NCBI GenBank assembly: GCA_028281825.1
Contig: JANQJC010000100.1
Coordinates: 9,854 to 73,853 of the forward strand
Reading direction: 5' to 3'
Source of the DNA: Flavobacteriales bacterium
GTDB lineage: Bacteria; Bacteroidota; Bacteroidia; JANQJC01
Length of the DNA stretch: 64,000 nucleotides
Below, one piece after another: positions 20,823-56,310 of the stretch. The position numbers and the translations under genes are program-made. The stretch's first letter is position 1. Every line of letters begins with the position of its first letter. Below the pieces are notes generated by a model. The model worked only from the letters and a program-made list of their open reading frames with translations. It made no database searches and was not told where the DNA came from.

Positions 20823-22853
20823 ATGAAAACCAGGCTCATCACCACCCTAATTATTGCATTGCTCAATAGCATTGCTTTTGGGCAACACCCAGCCCCATAT
20901 TTAGCAGCCAGAACTGAGCTGCAAGCCATGCTTAATGGGGATGAACCATTGAGTTATGAAAAAGCCATCTTTTTGATGGAGAATGCCTATTATGATAACC
21001 AATTGAGCTATGAAAATTATCAGGCTGTGCTGGATTTTCATACTTCTAACATTAGAGCATTTATTAAAACCAATCGGGATGCGGAATATGATTTCTCACC
21101 CACCTTACTGGAAACCGAAGAACAAAAAAAGTTGAAGTATGAAAAGGCATTAGCAAATTGGAGTATTTATACCTATATCACAGACACCCTACTATTTGCG
21201 TTTGATGATCAACGTTTCTACTTAAAAGAGCCTTTTAATTATTCTTCACAAGACCCATTTGGCACTGGTGATTGGCAAAATACACAGGTGGTTAACCTAC
21301 TTGATAATGGCACAGGCAATTGCTTCGCTCTCACTTCACTTTTCAAGATATTTTCTGAAAGATTGGGCACTGAAGCCAATATCTGCACAGTCCCGGGTCA
21401 TGTTTACATCCGCCATGCTGATGACAAGGGCATTAAATACAATGTAGAACTAGCCACCCGCTTCTTCCCCGGCACAGGCAGTTTAGAAACCCTCACCTAC
21501 ACCACTGATGAAGCGGTAAGGAACAACATATCCCTCAGGGAGTTAGATTTAAGTCAATCAGTCGCACTATGTCTCGTTTATTTAGCAAAAGGGTATGAGC
21601 ACAAGCACAACATCAAAGGCGGTGATTTTGCATTAGCATGTGCTGAACTGGCACTGCAACATGACCCACTCAACCTCAATGCCTCGCTTTTAAAAGCAGA
21701 AGTATTGGAAGAGAGAGTTATCAGTCAAAACCAGCCAGAAGAAAGTGAGGACTTTAAGGAATACGAGAAATTGATAACCTATCTATATGATTTAGGCTAT
21801 CGCGAAATGCCTTTTGAGATGAAAAGTAAAGTTATTTCAGAAATGCTAGGGGACAATGCAATATTGGCAGCTAATGATTATACACCTACACCGTTTGAGC
21901 ATTTGGGTACGAAAGAAACCAAGTATGCTACCCTTTCCTGGGGCATGTACAACGAGATACAAGAAAACAAGCCTTATGAAAAATACGGCAGAGCTATTTT
22001 TGATACTCAAAAACGAAAAATAACAGGCTTTACACAAGCTGACATACTATACAACCAATATAATTTCGACCCCGTTGTTTTTGCCCTAAGTGTGGATCCA
22101 TTGGCAAGAGATTATCCCTGGAACAGTCCTTATGCGTTTGCGGAGAATCGGGTAATTGATGGAATTGACTTAGAGGGTCTGGAATGGACAAGATTTGAGA
22201 GCACTTCTTTTGATCCAGTCCTTCAAAACTCTTCCAGTGATGAGAGATACTCCTATCAACAGCAATCAGGAGGAGTTGCTACTCTTACTCACGATTTATG
22301 GCTGGGAATACTTGACTATGAAGCTCAAAGGGGTGGAAAACAACTAGATGCTTATTATGATGGCGGAATAATGGCCATGGCGGCTGAAGGAGCAAAACAG
22401 GCTAGATTTGATTTTGCATCGGGTTTTCACTACGGAGCGAAAGATGTGGTTCCTAAGCCAGGGAGTGGTGTTTTGAAGAGTACGAATAATGCAGTTCCTA
22501 AACGTCTAGCTAGAGTAATTAACTCTGAGGATGCTTCTTCTGGTTTACTTGGAGGAAGCAACAGGCCATTTGTGACAGCTGCGGAAGATATTAGTGGAAT
22601 TAATTCAGCAGAAGGGTTGTCACAACGGTTATCTTTGTTTGATGGAGATGGAAAACTTAGACAGGGGCCTTTTAAAGTAATTGAGTTTGATACACCTTCA
22701 CAAGGGATTGCGTCACCAGTAAATATAGCTGAAGAAGGTTTTAACTCAGGTTATGTAGGTAAAGGAAAAACAGCAGGAGGTGCGAGAGAGTTCACAATTG
22801 ATAACGGCCCTGTTAAGGATTTGAAAAATGTTACCATTAAAGATATCGAATGA
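20823..22853 (+). CDS. Chimeric polymorphic toxin: secreted Cys/His/Asp-domain protein fused to an RHS-core terminal motif and an unknown C-terminal toxin domain
   Basis: Signal peptide present. The N-terminal ~360 aa is paralogous to the upstream gene. Residues ~385-450 read KYGRAIFDTQKRKITGF...SVDPLARDYPWNSPYAFAENRVIDGIDLEGL. This matches the conserved end of the RHS repeat-associated core (YYRARYYDPxxGRF...DPLAEKY.W.SPYAY..NNPI.FIDPDG). About 225 aa of unrelated sequence follows. Confidence 0.65.
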   Translation: MKTRLITTLIIALLNSIAFGQHPAPYLAARTELQAMLNGDEPLSYEKAIFLMENAYYDNQLSYENYQAVLDFHTSNIRAFIKTNRDAEYDFSPTLLETEEQKKLKYEKALANWSIYTYITDTLLFAFDDQRFYLKEPFNYSSQDPFGTGDWQNTQVVNLLDNGTGNCFALTSLFKIFSERLGTEANICTVPGHVYIRHADDKGIKYNVELATRFFPGTGSLETLTYTTDEAVRNNISLRELDLSQSVALCLVYLAKGYEHKHNIKGGDFALACAELALQHDPLNLNASLLKAEVLEERVISQNQPEESEDFKEYEKLITYLYDLGYREMPFEMKSKVISEMLGDNAILAANDYTPTPFEHLGTKETKYATLSWGMYNEIQENKPYEKYGRAIFDTQKRKITGFTQADILYNQYNFDPVVFALSVDPLARDYPWNSPYAFAENRVIDGIDLEGLEWTRFESTSFDPVLQNSSSDERYSYQQQSGGVATLTHDLWLGILDYEAQRGGKQLDAYYDGGIMAMAAEGAKQARFDFASGFHYGAKDVVPKPGSGVLKSTNNAVPKRLARVINSEDASSGLLGGSNRPFVTAAEDISGINSAEGLSQRLSLFDGDGKLRQGPFKVIEFDTPSQGIASPVNIAEEGFNSGYVGKGKTAGGAREFTIDNGPVKDLKNVTIKDIE

Positions 22854-23266
22854 TGAGAACACTGATTGAAGGAGAAGAATTTTACCAATTAAAAAAAGAC
22901 CTAAAAGAAGTCAAACGATTTCCTGCTAGGTATATTACTTTTTATATTAGAGAGAATGGAGAAAAATGGGTTCAGGATAAACCACACCCCGAACTTCATG
23001 GTGGAGGTCTATCTAGACTTACATTAGTAGATAAATTTCCTGATTTTGAAAATACAGAATGGAGTTCAAATGAATATTATGGGCAAGAGGCCTTTATTTT
23101 TATTGAAGAACAATTGAAGCTAGTCAAACAAATTCCTGATGAGAGAATACGATACTATATTGATAAAGAAGGACAAAAGTGGGTTGAAGAATATGTCTCA
23201 AATCTCAAAACGGATGGTAATCTGTTATGTTGGATACATACTATAGATGAGTTTCCATGGGAATGA
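22850..23266 (+). CDS. Putative cognate immunity protein (138 aa, internal two-fold repeat)
   Basis: Its start overlaps the toxin stop (ATGA at 22850-22853). The protein is acidic and cytoplasmic-looking. It contains the repeated segment R.I.FYIRENGEKWVQD / RIRYYIDKEGQKWVEE. Confidence 0.5.
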   Translation: MMRTLIEGEEFYQLKKDLKEVKRFPARYITFYIRENGEKWVQDKPHPELHGGGLSRLTLVDKFPDFENTEWSSNEYYGQEAFIFIEEQLKLVKQIPDERIRYYIDKEGQKWVEEYVSNLKTDGNLLCWIHTIDEFPWE

Positions 23267-23474
23267 ATATTCTTATTAAAAACGGATTTAGAAATATTTC
23301 GGAAACTGAAAAGAGCAGTATTATCCTTATTTGCAAGGAAATAAATGGTGTAGTGGAGAAGAATAATGTTATTGAAATTAGTCCAAATGAAAAAATTAAA
23401 AACCCTCCGTCTTCATCAACTGTATAATAAAGTCTGGAATATTGGTAATGTATCAGATTAGTTGACGGGCATAA

Positions 23475-23732
23475 AAACAAAATATAAAGAGATTATATTG
23501 CAGGCTTCCAAGGCATAGAGAAAGCGAAAACGGCAGGCAAAATTTTAAAGGAACTCCTATACAAAAGAATTTGGATAGAGATGAATTTCCACCTGCAATA
23601 ATTAAGACTGATAAGGCATATAGTGTAAAACATACACCCTCAAATGATAATAGAAGTGCCGGACAATCAATCGGTCAACAATTGAAGGGTTTTCCTGATG
23701 GAACAGTCATTAAAGTGGTCCCTGAAGAATAA
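23475..23732 (+). pseudogene. Orphan C-terminal toxin fragment (no start codon; stop-to-stop ORF ...NGRQNFKGTPIQKNLDRDEFPPAII...GFPDGTVIKVVPEE)
   Basis: An ~85 codon ORF without ATG lies immediately upstream of a SUKH-1 immunity gene. This is the classic orphan toxin-tip/immunity arrangement. Confidence 0.4.
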
Positions 23733-24336
23733 AAGAACTATGAATAATCTTATAAGAAGTATGGATTTTAGCTTTAAGAAAGAAAAAATTCAATTGAATT
23801 TTAAGGTGGAAGATGAAAGCTATATTCAATTTTTAAACGAAACAAATGGAGGAAGTTTTTACTCGCAAAGTATTATGTTTTATGGAATTGATACTGGAAT
23901 AAATTGTTACGATATAAATGAAGTAAATGATTTTCTGAGCCGAGTGTATGGAAAAATTTTTACGGGGATATCGATTGGTTGTGATGTTTTTGCGAATCAG
24001 TTTCTGATTAAAGAAAAAGACATTTATTTGTTTAACATTGAATCAGGAACTCTTGAGTTTATAGCGCGAGGGTTTAAAGATTTTGCTGACTTATTGGGTG
24101 AAGATTGGGAGTATTTATCAGGATATCAATACCTTAACCAATGGCAGAAAATAAATAATTCCTTGGGTAAATGTTGTAGGCTCTTGCCTCTCAAACCTTT
24201 TATTATAGGTGGAGAGTTTGATGTAAAACAAATGATAAAGTATGATTTCTTTGACACCTTAAGGTATAATTCTAAGCTTGCTAAGCAAATTTATGATTTA
24301 CCAGATGGACAATCTGTAGAAATTAAGTGGGAATGA
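23698..24336 (+). CDS. SMI1/KNR4 (SUKH-1) family immunity protein. The likely start is at 23740
   Basis: Diagnostic motif YIQFLNETNGGSFY (SUKH-1 FL..NGG signature). The size is ~200 aa. Confidence 0.65.
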   Translation: MEQSLKWSLKNKRTMNNLIRSMDFSFKKEKIQLNFKVEDESYIQFLNETNGGSFYSQSIMFYGIDTGINCYDINEVNDFLSRVYGKIFTGISIGCDVFANQFLIKEKDIYLFNIESGTLEFIARGFKDFADLLGEDWEYLSGYQYLNQWQKINNSLGKCCRLLPLKPFIIGGEFDVKQMIKYDFFDTLRYNSKLAKQIYDLPDGQSVEIKWE

Positions 24337-24362
24337 CTTCAAAAGAGTAATGTGATAGAAAA

Positions 24363-24608
24363 ACTCTTAGTGCAGGAAAAGGTGAGGTTGTTGATCATGA
24401 TCCTCCATTAGTGAAACGTTATTATGAGGGTGACCCTGTAGTAGGAGAAAAACCAGGTTATCAAATGAACCAAAGTGAGCGTTTAAAAAGCGCTAATGAT
24501 AGGACTCGAATGGCAAACCAGCCTACATCAGAGTCCAACAAGCAGGGTGGGGAAATGTCAAATTATTCTAAACAAAAAAAGCAAGAATATTTTAATAATG
24601 ATGAATAG
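24363..24608 (+). pseudogene. Orphan C-terminal toxin fragment (no start codon; ...KGEVVDHDPPLVKRYYEGDPVVGEKPGYQ...)
   Basis: An ORF without an initiator ends by overlapping the start of the next candidate immunity gene. The xVDHxxPL-like motif is reminiscent of HNH-type toxin tips, but the match is weak. Confidence 0.4.
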
Positions 24609-25182
24609 AATGTACCTTAATGAGATGGATTATCAGAATAGTATTATTCAACATTATACAGGTTTTTGGAAAAAGAACCCAAGTTTTTATTATTGGAGTG
24701 AGGGTCCAGTTACTGACCTATCACCTGTTTTTAGGGTACTTGAATTTCCTCCTAATGATATTCATAAAATGTGGACTTATGCGACTTGTTGCATGTCAAA
24801 TATGAATGATCCTAACCCAGTCGAATTGCATTTATTTTCATCAGTTCAAGATACTTCTTTGACAGAGTTGCTCACTATAGTTGCGCATTATCATAAAACA
24901 GGAAGTCCCATTAATTTAGACCATACCATAAACTTCGGAAGACCCTGGCAGAATAGATCAAAATGTGAATATGGATTAGTATCCTTACCATATTTGGATG
25001 GACCAGAACTTGAAAATTTCGAATTAAGTGATAAACAGAAAACAGTGAAATTTTACTGGTTAATACCTATTACTAAGAATGAAGTTGAGTTCAAGAAACT
25101 AAATGGCATAGAACAATTGGAGCAGGAATTTGATAACAAAGAATTTAACTATTTAGACCCTTTGCGTGAGAGTGTGGTTTAG
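24598..25182 (+). CDS. Putative immunity protein (approx. 195 aa, possibly SUFU-like/Imm family); start at 24598, 24601 or 24610
   Basis: It sits directly after an orphan toxin fragment. It is acidic, aromatic-rich and cytoplasmic. The family call is from memory only. Confidence 0.5.
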   Translation: MMNRMYLNEMDYQNSIIQHYTGFWKKNPSFYYWSEGPVTDLSPVFRVLEFPPNDIHKMWTYATCCMSNMNDPNPVELHLFSSVQDTSLTELLTIVAHYHKTGSPINLDHTINFGRPWQNRSKCEYGLVSLPYLDGPELENFELSDKQKTVKFYWLIPITKNEVEFKKLNGIEQLEQEFDNKEFNYLDPLRESVV

Positions 25183-52107: not shown

Positions 52108-53682
52108 ATGGAGACTACTGCAACACAAACTATTGACGTTGTAAATCCTATTACACTTGAGAAACTATACCACATAGAAGAAACTTCTCAGGAAAAGGTT
52201 GACCAAATTTTTAAAACTGCTCGCGAAGTACAGCCTAAGATAGAGGATATGAGCGTGGAGCAAAGAGTAAACGAAGTACTCAAGATTCGTGACTATATCA
52301 TTGAGAACCGTGAGGCTATTCTCACACGCATTATTCAGGAAACAGGTAAATCCCGTGTGGATGGAATGACCTCTGAGGTGTTCGAAATCATTGATGTGAT
52401 TGATGTATTCCGCAAGTTGACACCCAAAGTGCTGAAGTCAAAAAGTGTTGCCACTCCTATTGTGTTAGTGGGTAAGAAGTCTGAAGTATGGTACGAGCCA
52501 TTGGGAACCATCCTGGTTATCCCACCTTGGAACTATCCATTGTATCAAGCATTAGTGCCTTCAATCATGGCCTTCCTATCTGGCAATTCGGTTGTTGTAA
52601 AACCATCAGAGGTAACTCCATTGCAAGGTTTGATAGAGGAGATTATCGACAAGAGTGGGTTCATGAAAAATGCCATTCAAGTAGCGTATGGTTCTGGTAT
52701 CACCGGTGTTAAATTAATAGACGCCCAACCAGATAAAATTCACTTTACAGGCAGTTGCAAAACAGGTAAGAAGATAATGGCTCAGGCATCTCAATATCTC
52801 ATTCCTGTTGACTTGGAATTGGGTGGTAAAGATGCCGCTATAGTATTTGACGACATTAATATTGAAAGAACGGTAAACGGTATCATGTGGGGTGGCTACA
52901 CTACAGGAGGTCAGTCTTGTACTTCAGTAGAGCGTTGCTATGTGCAGGAAGGTATTTACGATAAGTTCGTTGAAATGATAGTAGATAGAAGTAAAAAACT
53001 TCGTCCATCACATGCTAATAGAAACATTGAAGACCCTGAAGATTGCGATGTAGGTACTGTAACTACGGAGTTCCAGGTGAAGATTATAGAAGACCATATT
53101 AAGGATGCTGTAGAGAAAGGTGCCAAAGTATTGTGTGGTGGCAGCCGTGAAAGTAATACTCGCCACTTTCCTCCTACAGTGATAGTAGATGTTACCCATG
53201 ATATGAAAATCATGATAGACGAAACTTTTGGTCCCGTTATCCCAGTTATGAAATTCAAGACTGAGGAAGAAGCCATTCGCTTGGCGAATGATAGCGAATA
53301 TGGACTAGGTGGCAGCGTTTGGTCTAAAAACTTAACAAGGGCAAGAAGGGTGGCAGGTAAGATTAAAACGGGTAACCTTTCTATCAATAACCACATGTTG
53401 AACGAAGGTAATCCAAATCTACCTTTCGGTGGAACTAAGAACAGTGGTTTTGGTCGCTACAAAGGTGACTTAGGACTTTATACCTTCTCAAATGCTAAGT
53501 CTGTATTGGTAGATAAAGATAGCTCCAATATTGACCCTAACTGGTACCCATTCACAAAAACTAAGTACACCCTTTTGAGTCAAATTATAGACCATCTTTT
53601 CTCAAGGAAGAAGAACCTTATAAAGTTCGCCTTGGTAGGTTTGAAAATTAATTCCATTGGTAAGAAAGAGAAATTAAATTGA
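52108..53682 (+). CDS. NAD(P)-dependent aldehyde dehydrogenase
   Basis: ALDH motifs VIPPWNYP, the Glu motif ELGGKDAAIV and the catalytic Cys context GGQSCTSVER are present. Confidence 0.85.
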   Translation: METTATQTIDVVNPITLEKLYHIEETSQEKVDQIFKTAREVQPKIEDMSVEQRVNEVLKIRDYIIENREAILTRIIQETGKSRVDGMTSEVFEIIDVIDVFRKLTPKVLKSKSVATPIVLVGKKSEVWYEPLGTILVIPPWNYPLYQALVPSIMAFLSGNSVVVKPSEVTPLQGLIEEIIDKSGFMKNAIQVAYGSGITGVKLIDAQPDKIHFTGSCKTGKKIMAQASQYLIPVDLELGGKDAAIVFDDINIERTVNGIMWGGYTTGGQSCTSVERCYVQEGIYDKFVEMIVDRSKKLRPSHANRNIEDPEDCDVGTVTTEFQVKIIEDHIKDAVEKGAKVLCGGSRESNTRHFPPTVIVDVTHDMKIMIDETFGPVIPVMKFKTEEEAIRLANDSEYGLGGSVWSKNLTRARRVAGKIKTGNLSINNHMLNEGNPNLPFGGTKNSGFGRYKGDLGLYTFSNAKSVLVDKDSSNIDPNWYPFTKTKYTLLSQIIDHLFSRKKNLIKFALVGLKINSIGKKEKLN

Positions 53683-53685
53683 TAC

Positions 53686-54098
53686 ATTGCTAAATTGTCA
53701 AACTGTTGAAGGGTTCAGGTTTTTTGAAATTAAATGATATTGGGGCTTACAAAAAGTCTTTCCATTTAAGTAACTATGTTTGGAACATTGTGCTTGATTG
53801 GGATCATTTTCAAAAATCAACAGTTGGACATCAATTTGTAAGGTCTGTGGATTCTATTTCTGCAAATGTGGCAGAAGGTTTTGGAAGATATAGCAAGAAA
53901 GATAAGATTAAGTTTTATAGAATAAGTCAAGGTTCCTTGTTGGAATCTCTCAATTGGAATGAGAAAGCAAGGGTAAGACAATTACTCAAAGAGGAAGAAT
54001 ATCAAAAAATTCTCAATGAGTTGAAAGAACTTCCAAGGGATATTAACTCCTTGATTAAGTTCACAAATGATAAATTAACAATTTAACAGTATAGCAAT
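53686..54098. mobile_element. MITE-like cassette 1: 13 bp terminal inverted repeats (ATTGCTAAATTGT / ACAGTATAGCAAT) flanking a four-helix-bundle protein gene
   Basis: The TIRs are read directly from the sequence at 53686-53698 and 54086-54098, with 11/13 complementarity. The element is wedged into a 31 nt gap between ALDH and the GMC oxidoreductase. Confidence 0.45.
53706..54086 (+). CDS. Four-helix-bundle protein (TIGR02436-like, historically 23S rRNA intervening-sequence protein); TTG start
   Basis: The motif SANVAEGFGRYSKKDKIKFYRISQGSLLE is the hallmark of this family. ~126 aa. Confidence 0.8.
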   Translation: MKGSGFLKLNDIGAYKKSFHLSNYVWNIVLDWDHFQKSTVGHQFVRSVDSISANVAEGFGRYSKKDKIKFYRISQGSLLESLNWNEKARVRQLLKEEEYQKILNELKELPRDINSLIKFTNDKLTI

Positions 54099-54113
54099 TT
54101 AACAATTAATTAG

Positions 54114-55493
54114 ATGTACGATTTTATTGTAATTGGCTCCGGTTCATCAGGCGGTACACTGGCAAGAAACCTTCATGAGTCAGGTGCTAAAGTGCTTTTG
54201 CTAGAAGCAGGAAAGTTTTTTCGTAAAAACACTTTCCCAAAGTCAGAAATGGACTTCTCAGCCCAATTATTTTGGGGTGGGGGTATTGAGTTTGATGTAG
54301 ATGCCAAAACAGCATTCCTAAGAGCTAAAACAGTTGGTGGAACTACTATCGTCAATCAGTGTTTGATGGATAGGTTTGATGACAGCGCCTGGGATGATTG
54401 GAAGCAGCGAAGCGGGGTAGACTACTTTACAGTAGACCAAATGACTCCCTATTATGAGCGAGCAGAAGCCAAATTGCAGTTGAGAACTTTTACCAATGAT
54501 AATTTCAACAAGAATGCTAAACTATTCACAGAGGCATGCGATAAACTAGGCCACGGCTGGAAACACCTGAGAAGGGGAGAAAGCGATTGTAAGCATGAAG
54601 ATGGCAATGATTGTATTGGCTGTTTGGGTGGTTGCTTTCGAGATTCAAAACAAAGTTCATTGGTATCTTCAATTCAGGTGGCTGAGCAAAAAGGCTTGGA
54701 GATAAAAGCCGAGTTTGAAGTAGATAAAATTGAGCATCACGATGACCATGTAGTGCTCCATGGTAATCATAAAGGACAAAAGGAAGCCCTGAAAGCAGCT
54801 AAAGTTTGTATTGCAGGTGGCTCTTTTGGTACCACTAAAATGATGTTGGCTTCGGGATATAAATCCAAGCTACCGGCCTTGGGTAAAGGTTTTTGTCAGC
54901 ACCCGCAATTTATGCTGTTTGGTATGTTTGATGATTATGTAGATGCCCACAAAGGAGCTTTCCAAACAGTAGCTTCTTATGACCCAAATTTTAGGAAGAA
55001 AGGCTTTAAACTAGAAAATGTATATGCACAACCCATTTCTGTGGGTATGTTATTCAATGTGTATGGCAAAGACCATCAAGAAATCATGCGTAACTATCGC
55101 AAAATGTCATGTATAGAAGTGGCCGTGCGTGACCAACCAGAAGGTGGTGAAATAAGCATGGATAAAAAGGGTAATCTTAAAGTGAAGAAGGTGCTTACCG
55201 AGCAGGATAAAACCCGCCGTGATGAGGGCTTGGATACCATTCGCAATATTTTGAGTGCACAGGGGGCCAAAAGAGTAGTCGACTCACCTTTCTATTTTGG
55301 TTTGCATTTGATGGGCGGTTGTGCTATTGGTACAGATGCTGATAAGTCAGTGGTGAATCCTGACTTCCAGGTGCATGGGCATAAAAACCTATACATCGCA
55401 GATACAAGCGTTTATCCAAGCGCACCGGGCATCAACCCGTCATTAACCGCAATGACGTTATCTCAAAAACTAAGTGAAGAACTTGTGAAATAA
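54114..55493 (+). CDS. GMC family oxidoreductase
   Basis: FAD motif DFIVIGSGSSGGTLA. The C-terminal GMC signature is HLMGGCAIG...NLYIADTSVYPSAPGINPSLTAMTL. Confidence 0.85.
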   Translation: MYDFIVIGSGSSGGTLARNLHESGAKVLLLEAGKFFRKNTFPKSEMDFSAQLFWGGGIEFDVDAKTAFLRAKTVGGTTIVNQCLMDRFDDSAWDDWKQRSGVDYFTVDQMTPYYERAEAKLQLRTFTNDNFNKNAKLFTEACDKLGHGWKHLRRGESDCKHEDGNDCIGCLGGCFRDSKQSSLVSSIQVAEQKGLEIKAEFEVDKIEHHDDHVVLHGNHKGQKEALKAAKVCIAGGSFGTTKMMLASGYKSKLPALGKGFCQHPQFMLFGMFDDYVDAHKGAFQTVASYDPNFRKKGFKLENVYAQPISVGMLFNVYGKDHQEIMRNYRKMSCIEVAVRDQPEGGEISMDKKGNLKVKKVLTEQDKTRRDEGLDTIRNILSAQGAKRVVDSPFYFGLHLMGGCAIGTDADKSVVNPDFQVHGHKNLYIADTSVYPSAPGINPSLTAMTLSQKLSEELVK

Positions 55494-55901
55494 ATGGTTG
55501 TACTGTCATATTGCTATATTGTTGGAACGATGAGTTATCTTAAATTGAATGATATAAATGTCTATAAAAGAGCATTTCATTTGAGTAATTATGTTTGGGA
55601 AATTGTAATGCAATGTGACCAGTTTACTAAGAGAACTCTAGGTCAACAATTTGTGAATGCCGTCGATGCAATCTCAGCAAATGTGGCTGAAGGATTTGGA
55701 AGGTATAGTAAGAAAGACAAAATTCGCTTTTACAGGATAAGTATGGGTTCTGTTATGGAAGCACTTGATTGGAATGAGAAAGCCAAAACAAGGAGAATAA
55801 TAAATGAAGACCAATACTCCAAAATATTGCAAGAATTAAAGGAGTTTCCAAGAGAGATTAATCACTTGATTAAGTTTACAAATGAAAAATTAGCAATATA
55901 A
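55494..55901 (+). CDS. Four-helix-bundle protein, second paralog. The likely start is at 55530 (MSYLKLND)
   Basis: ISANVAEGFGRYSKKDKIRFYRISMGSVMEA. It shares ~60% amino-acid identity with copy 1. Confidence 0.8.
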   Translation: MVVLSYCYIVGTMSYLKLNDINVYKRAFHLSNYVWEIVMQCDQFTKRTLGQQFVNAVDAISANVAEGFGRYSKKDKIRFYRISMGSVMEALDWNEKAKTRRIINEDQYSKILQELKEFPREINHLIKFTNEKLAI

Positions 55902-55913
55902 CAGTATAGCCAT
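55510..55913. mobile_element. MITE-like cassette 2: TIRs ATTGCTATATTGT / ACAGTATAGCCAT flanking the second four-helix-bundle gene
   Basis: The TIRs lie at 55510-55522 and 55901-55913. The 3' TIR overlaps the ATG (55912) of the downstream gene. The 5' and 3' flanks are conserved with copy 1 beyond the coding region. Confidence 0.45.
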
Positions 55914-56310
55914 GTCTAAAATATTAAGTAAATCCGCAGTAAAAGCCTTAACAAGAATAGGTGATATACTTTGTCCAAAAAATGGTGACTTCCCAGCCTA
56001 TTCTGAAGTGGGTTGTATAGAACATGTAGATGATGTGATTGGTTATGCGCCAGCTTCAGACATTGGAGACTTAAATATGCTGCTTTCCATACTGGCCTAT
56101 ATGCCAGCGGGTGCGCTAAACTGGCTAGTTAAAACCATGAATGATAGCCATAATAAAGAAGGTGGTTTCGCTACCTTAATGCGCCAGCTTGACTTCGGAC
56201 TTAAGGGAATAATATATGGCACTTACTACTCAGGTAAAGTAGGGGCCAACTACAAAGGAAAAACCCCACAAGAAGTTATCGAGTTTGATATCGTAAGGAT
56301 GGAAAACTAG
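55912..56310 (+). CDS. Hypothetical small protein (132 aa), possible accessory subunit of the GMC oxidoreductase
   Basis: It lies directly downstream of the GMC gene (after cassette 2). Its size is similar to gluconate 2-dehydrogenase subunit-3-like partners, but no Tat signal was seen. Confidence 0.4.
   Translation: MSKILSKSAVKALTRIGDILCPKNGDFPAYSEVGCIEHVDDVIGYAPASDIGDLNMLLSILAYMPAGALNWLVKTMNDSHNKEGGFATLMRQLDFGLKGIIYGTYYSGKVGANYKGKTPQEVIEFDIVRMEN

What the first reader, a model, noticed from the sequence alone, without database searches (positions are those of the whole stretch)
53686..55913. Two MITE-like cassettes with 13 bp terminal inverted repeats, each carrying a four-helix-bundle (TIGR02436-like) gene
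In both copies the coding region is bounded by 5' ATTGCTA(A/T)ATTGT and 3' ACAGTATAGC(A/C)AT. The two flanks are reverse complements at 11/13 positions. Conservation between the two copies extends beyond the start and stop codons. Each ~410 bp unit therefore looks like a discrete mobile or formerly mobile module. This may explain why this protein family is multi-copy and inserts in intergenic gaps and rRNA intervening sequences in many genomes.
Basis: seen in the sequence. Interest (0 to 1): 0.65.

Follow-up and report, generated by a model that had tools for sequence, protein, structure and literature searches.

The report
Gene cassettes with mirrored repeat ends
Two copies of a small, highly conserved gene are wedged between the genes of one operon, each bracketed by mirror-image runs of an 8-base repeat. 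The same package sits at about fifty other sites in distantly related bacteria, so it looks like an undescribed mobile gene cassette related to the insertions that interrupt ribosomal RNA genes.

Summary
The arrays run forward upstream and reverse-complemented downstream of each TIGR02436/PF05635 four-helix-bundle gene. They are the only such arrays in the 64 kb window.

In 80 loci from other genomes (Patescibacteria, Bacteroidota, Ignavibacteriota and others) plus 15 metagenome contigs, the same gene subfamily (about 70% identical) nearly always has the same inverted arrays. The cassette sits in about 52-55 different intercistronic contexts and is almost always in the sense orientation (64:1).

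Relatives of this operon have a 1-26 nt spacer where copy 2 sits, so that site is empty in them. Array length changes in whole units. Gene-less elements with the same arms exist. The protein is under strong purifying selection (dN/dS 0.03-0.07).

I read these as promoter-less palindromic cassettes. They resemble the ORF-carrying 23S rRNA intervening sequences but sit in mRNA operons. The arms are predicted to close into a 20-30 bp stem.

How they move is unknown. I found no transposase, no target-site duplication, and no sign that RNA pairing itself is the selected feature. "MITE-like" is partly right. I found no published description.

The parts
52108..53682 (+). Host operon gene 1: aldehyde dehydrogenase. 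Its TGA stop codon lies inside the first octamer of the copy 1 array.
   Evidence: PF00171, E=6e-127. Sequence read. Orthologues in L082, L084 and L093.
53678..53707 (+). 5' arm of cassette 1: four forward octamers, ATTGATAC ATTGCTAA ATTGTCAA ACTGTT.
Evidence: Array scan of the window. Conserved in the orthologous cassettes of L084 and L093.
53706..54086 (+). Four-helix-bundle gene, copy 1 (126 aa, TTG start; the orthologue in L084 starts with ATG).
   Evidence: PF05635 E=2.5e-24. TIGR02436 91.9 bits. AlphaFold model pLDDT 89.7 with four helices. Foldseek 2GSC TM 0.82-0.89. dN/dS 0.03-0.07.
54077..54106 (+). 3' arm of cassette 1: four reverse-complement octamers, AACAATTT AACAGTAT AGCAATTT AACAAT. 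The arm starts inside the last codons (L-T-I-stop) of the gene.
   Evidence: Pairs with the 5' arm in the predicted RNA fold.
54114..55493 (+). Host operon gene 2: GMC-family FAD oxidoreductase, flanked by the two cassettes.
   Evidence: PF00732 and PF05199. Orthologues at 46-94% protein identity.
55494..55523 (+). 5' arm of cassette 2: ATGGTTGT ACTGTCAT ATTGCTAT ATTGTT. It starts on the base after the GMC stop codon.
   Evidence: The orthologous arm in L093 is shown.
55530..55901 (+). Four-helix-bundle gene, copy 2 (123 aa). The database call of 135 aa starts at 55494, inside the array.
   Evidence: PF05635 E=2.2e-23. TIGR02436 86.9 bits. The start is placed by homology.
55892..55913 (+). 3' arm of cassette 2: AGCAATAT AACAGTAT AGCCAT. 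Its last unit overlaps the ATG of the next gene. The orthologue in L093 is exactly two units (16 nt) longer.
   Evidence: A 22-bp closing stem with the 5' arm appears in both the MFE and the centroid fold.
55912..56310 (+). Host operon gene 3: conserved 132-aa partner ORF of the GMC oxidoreductase. It has no Pfam or NCBIfam match.
   Evidence: It follows the GMC gene in all 10 related loci that extend past the 3' end of the GMC gene, after a spacer of 1-26 nt in most of them.

Best explanation
Each unit is a promoter-less palindromic gene cassette. It has the same kind of architecture as the ORF-carrying intervening sequences (IVS) of 23S rRNA, but it sits between the cistrons of an mRNA operon.

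Shown:
- A ~125-aa basic four-helix-bundle protein gene (PF05635/TIGR02436, Avd-like fold) is bracketed by mirror-image arrays of the octamer ATTGYTNN.
- The package was inserted precisely between the stop codon of one gene and the start codon of the next.
- It occurs in about fifty unrelated contexts in several phyla, almost always in the sense orientation.
- The arrays evolve by gain and loss of whole units.
- The protein is under strong purifying selection.

Inferred:
- The cassette has no promoter and is transcribed by read-through from the host operon.
- In that transcript the two arrays pair into an imperfect stem of about 20-30 bp that closes off the whole cassette. By analogy with the Coxiella and Leptospira IVS, this stem would be a substrate for RNase III. 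Cleavage would separate the flanking cistrons and release a stem-capped four-helix-bundle mRNA.
- The hexamer core is conserved across phyla while the 2-nt spacers and the coding DNA drift, and the protein is the only thing that travels with the arrays. I therefore infer that the protein, probably a pentameric ring like its solved homologues, recognises the arrays of its own element as DNA or RNA.

The DNA-level step that creates new copies is unknown.
For: Anatomy:
- The octamer core is about 10-fold enriched and strictly oriented: 46.8/kb forward upstream and 42.7/kb reverse downstream, against 4.4-4.7/kb background.
- In an unbiased count, ATTGTT and AACAAT are the top 6-mers at 34-fold enrichment. 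Period-8 autocorrelation is 0.52 against 0.27.
- Of 82 cassettes, 75 have the arrays on both sides, as do 15 of 15 further contigs.
- There are no arrays elsewhere in the window or in 53 kb of control loci.

The arms are related to each other:
- Cognate arms share 8-mer variants more than non-cognate arms: Jaccard 0.195 against 0.079, reached by 0 of 2000 permutations.
- ATGG and other unit variants correlate between the two arms: rho 0.37-0.40, p<0.001.
- Cognate duplex energy is -30.9 kcal/mol against -25.4 for non-cognate pairs.

Insertion:
- The GMC-to-partner-ORF spacer is 1-26 nt in L082 and L086-L089, against 418 nt in the window.
- L064 has an empty site where L048 and L057 carry a gene-less hairpin.
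- The cassettes occupy 52-55 distinct contexts.
- The two window copies are no closer to each other (68%) than to copies in other phyla, which reach 75%.

Dependence on host transcription:
- 64 cassettes are in sense and 1 in antisense orientation within co-directional gene pairs. Median gaps are 46 and 52 nt.
- Real gene calls show the same orientation.
- There is no -7 motif, sigma-70 match or terminator in the junctions.

Stem:
- The closing stem appears in both the MFE and the centroid fold for both window cassettes.
- 65 of 82 cassettes have 12 or more long-range pairs, median 28.5, against a median of 4 when the flank is swapped.

Protein:
- dN/dS is 0.03-0.07, and dN is lower than in the neighbouring GMC and partner genes.
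- Median pI is 9.4 with net charge +5.
- The fold matches the pentameric Xcc0516 (2GSC), BT_0352 (2RLD) and DGR Avd (4DWL, 8UB7).

Precedent:
- The Coxiella IVS (428 nt, S23p ORF) has a 28-bp terminal stem and variable tandem heptamers before the ORF, and is cut by RNase III (PMC4990558).
Against: - Nothing shows that pairing of the sense RNA is the selected feature. The antisense strand folds equally well (-30.3 against -30.9 kcal/mol; 76 of 82 cassettes). Mismatches that would be G.U in sense RNA are no commoner than those that would be G.U in antisense RNA (57 against 65).
- The arms are only about 87% complementary over about 25 nt, and the 2-nt spacers often mismatch.
- A core conserved across phyla points to sequence recognition rather than mere pairing. 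That fits a DNA-level role at least as well as an RNA-level one.
- No column of the protein alignment co-varies with the ATTG/ATGG repeat variant, although only 6 loci are variant.
- Many insertions are ancient and syntenic, so mobility is rare.
- No transcript, cleavage or binding data exist.
- None of the sampled copies is in an rRNA gene.
Confidence: 0.5

Rival explanations
1. The cassettes are a classical DNA transposon derivative. The arrays are multi-site terminal inverted repeats bound by a transposase encoded elsewhere in the genome. The four-helix-bundle gene is passenger cargo, and the gene-less hairpins are the true MITEs.
For: - The ends are inverted, with repeated subterminal units.
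- Gene-less elements share the same arms, including one 2 kb from a full cassette with a near-identical 5' arm.
- Empty sites exist.
- The two strands show no asymmetry, as expected for a DNA-level signal.
Against: - No target-site duplication: the longest shared direct word in cognate flanks is 4.5 nt against 4.2 for non-cognate flanks.
- No transposase, integrase or RT in the 64 kb, and none noticed in the sampled ORFs and gene calls of the 5-kb loci, which were not screened systematically.
- A passenger gene would not be the most conserved gene of the locus, nor be present in nearly every copy across phyla.
- A 64:1 sense bias is not expected from a symmetric DNA element.
- The same trans-acting enzyme would have to exist in Patescibacteria, Bacteroidota and Ignavibacteriota.
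Confidence: 0.2
2. The cassette is a resident, vertically inherited regulatory gene and not a mobile element. The arrays are operator or RNA-binding sites through which the protein controls its own expression or that of the flanking cistrons. The spread across contexts reflects ancient events only.
For: - Strong purifying selection.
- Long-lived syntenic insertions across families.
- Pairwise identities form a plateau near 70% regardless of taxon.
- The protein is basic and related to a nucleic-acid-binding family.
- It is absent from phage and viral contigs and nearly absent from plasmids.
Against: - About 52-55 unrelated contexts with precise stop-to-start placement.
- Presence and absence differ among close relatives: copy 2 is in the window and in L093 but not in L084.
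- The two copies in one operon are not each other's closest relatives.
- Gene-less copies of the arms lie in neighbouring spacers.
Confidence: 0.12
3. The resemblance of the flanks is chance, or it is a generic promoter or terminator motif of an AT-rich genome.
For: The bare 13-mer with up to 2 mismatches is no more frequent than expected (9 against 8.0). The genome is 41% G+C.
Against: - All four arrays of 3 or more units in the window flank the two genes, with 0.5 expected.
- The same arrangement holds in 75 of 82 and in 15 of 15 independent loci.
- There are none in 53 kb of control loci.
- There is no terminator-like T-run and no -7 motif in the junctions.
Confidence: 0.01

Closest known systems
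ORF-carrying intervening sequences (IVS) of 23S rRNA (Coxiella burnetii, Leptospira, Xanthomonas, Brucella; S23p ORF)
   Same: - Same protein family (PF05635).
- Same size class: 428 nt in Coxiella against about 420-430 nt here.
- The ORF lies in the loop of a stem made by terminal inverted repeats.
- Short tandem repeats, variable in number, lie just before the ORF: GACAGAT heptamers in Coxiella.
- Sense orientation within a host transcript.
- Patchy distribution that suggests horizontal spread (PMC4990558; 10.1101/2024.02.27.582315).
   Different: - These cassettes are in intercistronic spacers of protein-coding operons, not in helix 25 or 45 of 23S rRNA.
- The ends are arrays of one conserved octamer shared across phyla, not a lineage-specific stem.
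- The ORF is under strong purifying selection, whereas the Coxiella ORF is decaying and apparently untranslated.
- RNase III cleavage has not been tested here.
Co-transcribed bacterial palindromic repeats: Neisseria Correia/NEMIS, enterobacterial ERIC/YPAL, pneumococcal BOX and RUP
   Same: - Small intergenic elements with inverted ends.
- They sit inside operons, are transcribed with the neighbouring genes, and fold into RNA hairpins.
- In the case of Correia elements the hairpin is cut by RNase III, changing mRNA stability.
- BOX elements also have a variable number of internal tandem modules.
   Different: - Those elements are non-coding, restricted to one genus or family, and present in tens to hundreds of copies.
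- Correia elements have a TA duplication.
- The elements here carry a conserved gene, span phyla, and show no duplication.
Eukaryotic Foldback (FB) transposons (from my own knowledge)
   Same: The terminal inverted repeats are themselves built of short tandem sub-repeats whose number varies. Some copies carry ORFs and many are ORF-less.
   Different: They are eukaryotic, far larger, and have unrelated proteins. The resemblance is architectural only.
Avd, the accessory protein of diversity-generating retroelements
   Same: It is a homologous basic four-helix bundle (Foldseek TM about 0.7 to 4DWL and 8UB7). Avd is a pentamer that binds a reverse transcriptase and structured RNA (PMC10053308).
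   Different: There is no reverse transcriptase and no template/variable repeat pair in the 64 kb. Sequence identity to Avd is about 10%.
Integron gene cassettes
   Same: A promoter-less single ORF with an imperfect palindromic site, expressed from an upstream host promoter.
   Different: In integrons the ORF lies outside the palindrome (attC), the cassettes are stacked next to an integrase, and the cargo genes are diverse. Here one gene family lies inside the palindrome and there is no integrase.

Membership tests
TIGR02436 / PF05635 four-helix-bundle (23S rRNA IVS protein) family | Score above the curated HMM cut-offs | tested here: met
   PF05635 scores 85.9 and 82.9 bits against a cut-off of 33.8. 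TIGR02436 scores 91.9 and 86.9 bits against a cut-off of 24.
TIGR02436 / PF05635 four-helix-bundle (23S rRNA IVS protein) family | Four-helix-bundle fold like Xcc0516 and BT_0352 | tested here: met
   The AlphaFold model has pLDDT 89.7 with helices at 9-30, 34-58, 64-90 and 96-123. Foldseek gives 2GSC TM 0.82/0.89, rmsd 1.3, and 2RLD TM 0.73-0.88. The profile also hits 2GSC and 2RLD by sequence.
TIGR02436 / PF05635 four-helix-bundle (23S rRNA IVS protein) family | Homopentameric ring assembly | not tested
   Only a monomer was modelled. Both solved homologues are deposited as five chains.
23S rRNA intervening sequence (IVS) element | Located inside a 23S (or 16S) rRNA gene, typically helix 25 or 45 | tested here: not met
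   Both window copies lie between protein-coding genes, and Rfam finds no rRNA in the window. In all 82 sampled cassettes and 15 further contigs the neighbours are protein-coding ORFs or a contig end; none lies in an rRNA gene.
23S rRNA intervening sequence (IVS) element | Terminal inverted repeats that pair into a stem enclosing the ORF | tested here: met
   The closing stem appears in the MFE and centroid folds of both copies. 65 of 82 cassettes have 12 or more long-range pairs, against a median of 4 in the control. This is a prediction only.
23S rRNA intervening sequence (IVS) element | Excision from the transcript by RNase III | not testable with these tools
   This needs RNA-end mapping in a wild-type strain and an rnc mutant.
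MITE (miniature inverted-repeat transposable element) | Terminal inverted repeats | tested here: met
   The median inverted repeat is 25 nt at 87% identity.
MITE (miniature inverted-repeat transposable element) | Target-site duplication | tested here: inconclusive
   Cognate flanks share no more direct repeat than non-cognate flanks (4.5 against 4.2 nt). The array boundaries are fuzzy. A possible 3-nt ATG at copy 2 cannot be told apart from an ATGGTT unit.
MITE (miniature inverted-repeat transposable element) | Non-coding, non-autonomous | tested here: not met
   Each unit carries an intact, selected 123-126-aa gene. Gene-less relatives do exist in other genomes, but not in this window.
MITE (miniature inverted-repeat transposable element) | A parent element with a transposase sharing the same ends | tested here: inconclusive
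   Pfam scans of 45 ORFs found none in the 64 kb. The rest of the genome is not available.
Diversity-generating retroelement | Reverse transcriptase plus a template/variable repeat pair next to the Avd-like gene | tested here: not met
   There is no RT domain in the window. The cassette neighbours are metabolic genes.
Integron cassette | attC site downstream of the ORF and an adjacent IntI integrase with attI | tested here: not met
   There is no integrase in the window. The repeats bracket the ORF on both sides and are tandem octamers.

The most novel reading that the evidence does not exclude
The cassette is an autonomous element of a new class, and the Avd-like four-helix-bundle pentamer is its only dedicated protein. 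In this reading the protein binds the telomere-like inverted octamer arrays, roughly one unit per subunit and about 4-5 units per arm. It directs their copying or insertion with host enzymes, possibly a host reverse transcriptase, as Avd does in DGRs. The ORF-carrying rRNA intervening sequences, the four-helix-bundle genes scattered inside cas and other operons, and the gene-less array hairpins would then be one lineage of mobile elements with a so far unknown, transposase-free mechanism.
Probability: 0.2. Interest if true: 0.85.

Novelty: new variant of a known kind. Interest (0 to 1): 0.6.

Why it matters
PF05635/TIGR02436 proteins are abundant and multi-copy, and they have had no assigned function for 30 years apart from the DGR cofactor Avd. 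Their genes have been read as cas-associated (PMC3936711) or as prophage content (PMC5524665) simply because they sit between other genes.

This work shows that one very large, very conserved subfamily always travels with mirror-image arrays of a single octamer. It is inserted stop-to-start in the sense orientation and has gene-less derivatives. That gives a concrete cis-element to test against the protein.

It offers a path to the origin and mobility of the rRNA intervening sequences. It identifies a likely source of mRNA processing sites inside operons of Patescibacteria and Bacteroidota. It is also a practical warning for annotation and for guilt-by-association studies.

Tried and rejected
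- Rfam at gathering thresholds on the whole window: no match.
- PADLOC defence models: nothing significant.
- Phage records and IMG/VR contigs: none, or a single 29% match. A phage vehicle is therefore unsupported.
- Plasmids: one 41%-identical cyanobacterial homologue without arrays. The arrays are therefore subfamily-specific.
- Strand-asymmetry tests for RNA pairing, using duplex energy and wobble-type mismatches: no asymmetry.
- Target-site duplication search: nothing above background.
- Covariation between protein columns and the ATTG/ATGG repeat variant: none convincing, with only 6 variant loci.
- Search for rRNA contexts among short Patescibacteria contigs: all were pilB-pilC or other protein-coding operons.
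- Bacteroidetes -7 motif, sigma-70 and terminator scans of the junctions: nothing in the spacers.
- Full-text search for the octamer strings and for IVS-like or 23S_rRNA_IVP terms: no description of these arrays.
- Ralph & McClelland 1993 is not held. Its report of inverted repeats in the Leptospira IVS is cited only through PMC4990558 and from memory.
- The metagenome scan with the GMC protein gave only 7 loci. These were enough to show empty sites but too few for gain/loss dating.
- Integron and DGR readings were rejected for lack of an integrase or RT.
Full report
**What is at the coordinates**

The region is a co-directional operon in a Bacteroidota chromosome; GldD, SprB and type IX secretion domains occur elsewhere in the window. 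The gene order is as follows:
- aldehyde dehydrogenase, 52108-53682
- a 126-aa ORF, 53706-54086
- GMC oxidoreductase, 54114-55493
- a 123-aa ORF, 55530-55901
- a conserved 132-aa partner ORF, 55912-56310

The two small ORFs match PF05635 and TIGR02436 well above the cut-offs. They are 68% identical and are the only copies in the 64 kb.

**What the flanks really are**

The 13-mers are fragments of tandem octamer arrays. Upstream of copy 1 the sequence reads ATTGATAC ATTGCTAA ATTGTCAA ACTGTT. Downstream it reads AACAATTT AACAGTAT AGCAATTT AACAAT. Copy 2 has ATGGTTGT ACTGTCAT ATTGCTAT ATTGTT upstream and AGCAATAT AACAGTAT AGCCAT downstream.

A scan for three or more such units at 8-nt spacing finds exactly these four runs in the window, against 0.5 in shuffles.

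The cassettes fill the intergenic space completely:
- The aldehyde dehydrogenase stop codon lies in the first unit of the copy 1 array.
- The array of copy 2 begins on the base after the GMC stop codon.
- The last unit of copy 2 overlaps the ATG of the next gene.
- The last codons of each small ORF (K-L-T/A-I-stop) are themselves the first unit of the 3' array.

**Generality**

A protein search found thousands of relatives. The best 120 are all 65% or more identical to the query, and their source labels include Patescibacteria, Bacteroidota and Ignavibacteria. I fetched 80 genome loci.
- The core A[TC][TG]G[TCA][TC] occurs at 46.8/kb in the forward sense in the 80 nt upstream. It occurs at 42.7/kb in the reverse sense just downstream. 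Background is 4.4-4.7/kb. Of 82 cassettes, 75 have two or more units on both sides.
- Without assuming a motif, ATTGTT and AACAAT are the most enriched 6-mers (34-fold). The only periodicity is 8 nt, with autocorrelation 0.52 against 0.27.
- The unit consensus is A-T-T/g-G-T/c-T-N-N, with a median of four units per arm and up to 15.
- Fifteen further metagenome contigs all show the same arrays.
- 53 kb of control loci without the gene show none.
- A 41%-identical homologue on a Pseudanabaena plasmid has no arrays. The arrays therefore mark this conserved subfamily, not PF05635 as a whole.

**The two arms belong together**
- Cognate arms share full 8-mer variants more than arms from different loci: Jaccard 0.195 against 0.079, reached by 0 of 2000 permutations.
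- Their predicted duplex is stronger: -30.9 against -25.4 kcal/mol.
- Unit variants such as ATGG correlate between arms (rho 0.37-0.40). This holds even within one group of orthologous insertions in Chitinophagales.
- In the window, unit variants are mirrored in order in copy 2: ATGG, then ACTG, then ATTGC from the outside inwards on both arms.
- Arrays change by whole units. The orthologous copy 2 in L093 is exactly 16 nt, or two units, longer. Unit order is permuted in the copy 1 orthologue.

**Evidence of insertion and of age**
- Where the window has the 418-nt copy 2 region, five related operons have spacers of only 1-26 nt between the GMC stop and the partner ORF start (L082, L086-L089).
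- By GMC DNA identity the three closest genomes relate as ((window, L084), L093). L093 has both cassettes. L084 has copy 1 only and carries an unrelated 172-nt palindrome at the copy 2 site. This points to loss or replacement in L084.
- The 82 cassettes lie in 52-55 different flanking contexts. Ten or eleven contexts are shared by several genomes, so many insertions are old and vertically inherited.
- The two window copies are not each other's nearest relatives. Pairwise identity across 205 proteins sits on a plateau near 70%.
- Some MAG taxon labels are doubtful. I rely only on Patescibacteria, Bacteroidota and Ignavibacteriota/Chlorobiota.

**Orientation and packing**
- 72 of 77 upstream neighbours and 71 of 76 downstream neighbours are co-oriented with the cassette. 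Inside co-directional gene pairs the count is 64 sense to 1 antisense. Median gaps are 46 and 52 nt.
- Real gene calls on 17 further loci agree.
- No sigma-70-like site, Bacteroidetes -7 motif or terminator lies in the junctions.
- I infer that the cassettes have no promoter and depend on read-through from the host operon.

**Gene-less relatives**
- Several loci carry hairpins made only of the two arrays with a short loop: L047 1815-1912, L048 3180-3254, L057 2372-2462, L058 1145-1208 and L066 1793-1861.
- L064 shows the empty site for the L048/L057 hairpin.
- L099 has, one gene upstream of a full cassette, an element with a near-identical 5' arm. Its loop is a 130-nt structured non-coding sequence.
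- Solo arrays occur at some gene ends (L027).

**The protein**
- dN/dS for copy 1 is 0.03-0.07. Its dN (0.056) is lower than that of the neighbouring GMC gene (0.074) and partner ORF (0.138) over the same genome pair.
- 37 of about 121 alignment columns are 95% or more conserved. Median pI is 9.4 with net charge +5.
- The AlphaFold model (pLDDT 89.7) is a four-helix bundle. It superposes on Xcc0516 (2GSC), BT_0352 (2RLD) and DGR Avd (4DWL, 8UB7), all deposited as pentamers.

**RNA or DNA?**
- As RNA, both window cassettes fold with a terminal stem that closes the whole unit, in both the MFE and the centroid structure.
- 65 of 82 cassettes have 12 or more long-range pairs, median 28.5, against 4 with a swapped flank.
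- The antisense strand folds just as well. Mismatches that would be G.U in the sense transcript are no commoner than the opposite kind (57 against 65).
- Pairing is therefore predicted, but there is no signature that pairing of the sense RNA is what selection maintains.
- A hexamer core conserved across phyla beside drifting 2-nt spacers suggests sequence-specific recognition.
- No protein column tracks the ATGG variant.
- No target-site duplication was detectable.
- No transposase, integrase or RT is present in the 64 kb.

**Comparison with what is known**

The closest known thing is the ORF-carrying 23S rRNA intervening sequence. It has the same protein family and the same size. Its terminal inverted repeat forms a stem around the ORF. 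Tandem heptamers of variable number lie before the ORF. RNase III excises it (Coxiella, PMC4990558). PF05635 ORFs also occur in 16S and 23S insertions of Patescibacteria.

The cassettes here fail the defining location test for an IVS, because they are in mRNA operons. They fail the non-coding criterion for a MITE. They lack the partners required of DGRs and integrons.

Earlier papers recorded such genes between cas genes (PMC3936711) and between gmk and nadD in a supposed phage region of Flavobacterium columnare (PMC5524665). Neither noted the repeats. Full-text searches for the octamer strings found nothing relevant.

**Verdict**

The interpretation of a discrete, formerly mobile module with inverted ends is right in outline. 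It is wrong in detail on three points: the simple 13-bp TIR, the MITE label, and the explanation for all PF05635 genes and for the rRNA IVS.

My best reading, at confidence about 0.5, is a promoter-less, IVS-type palindromic gene cassette. It is expressed from the host operon. Its arms form an RNase III-sized stem and are probably recognised by the encoded Avd-like protein. The mechanism that creates new DNA copies remains open.

Noticed in passing
L084 4384-4555 (the site equivalent to window 55494-55911): The closest relative has, in place of cassette copy 2, a 172-nt palindrome built of CTTTGTG(G)/CCACAAAG units with no ORF. It is unique among the 107 loci fetched. The same stop-to-start junction has therefore been colonised by two unrelated palindromic elements.
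   Followed up: partly
L083 1542-1634; L063 about 2640-2790 (alignment A3, columns 340-500): Other intercistronic spacers carry different period-8 arrays: ATGAATTA/ACGAATTA in a Bacteroidota relative and AATTCGTT in a Patescibacteria-like genome. Octamer-array elements may therefore come in several sequence families.
   Followed up: no
L099 940-1165: A gene-less element has a 5' arm almost identical to that of the full cassette 2 kb downstream. Its loop is about 130 nt and contains its own small inverted repeats, with no remnant of the four-helix-bundle ORF.
   Followed up: partly
L082 2083-3000: In a Flavobacteriales relative, an ORF6N-domain gene and a 154-aa ORF are inserted after the aldehyde dehydrogenase gene. 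They are bracketed by a direct duplication of about 30 bp from the dehydrogenase 3' end (GGACAGTATTGGGAATAAGGA...).
   Followed up: no
window 54077-54086 and 55892-55901: The conserved C-terminal residues K-L-T/A-I and the stop codon (AAA TTA ACA ATT TAA) double as the first unit of the 3' array. The conservation of the protein's tail may therefore be driven by the DNA or RNA repeat rather than by the protein.
   Followed up: partly
window 55494-55529: The public gene call for copy 2 (P0063, 135 aa) starts at an ATG that belongs to an ATGGTT repeat unit directly after the GMC stop codon. Homology places the real start at 55530.
   Followed up: yes
window 20823-25182: A polymorphic-toxin cluster is present: a 676-aa protein with a C-terminal Ntox10 domain, followed by an Imm27 immunity gene and a SUFU-like (immunity-type) gene.
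   Followed up: no
L011 2485-2509: The four-helix-bundle ORF of a Falkowbacteria MAG has an in-frame TAG at codon 8, although the rest of the gene is intact. This could be a pseudogene, a sequencing error or recoding.
   Followed up: no
L027 1718-1755 and 4908-4945: Solo forward arrays with no reverse partner sit at the 3' ends of a dehydrogenase gene and an aconitase-like gene in an Ignavibacteriales genome. The host stop codon lies inside the array.
   Followed up: partly
L073, L065, L068 (record titles): Some MAG taxon labels look unreliable. A 'Magasanikbacteria' contig shares flanking genes with Chitinophaga loci, and a 'Gammaproteobacteria' bin shares them with a Falkowbacteria locus.
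   Followed up: no
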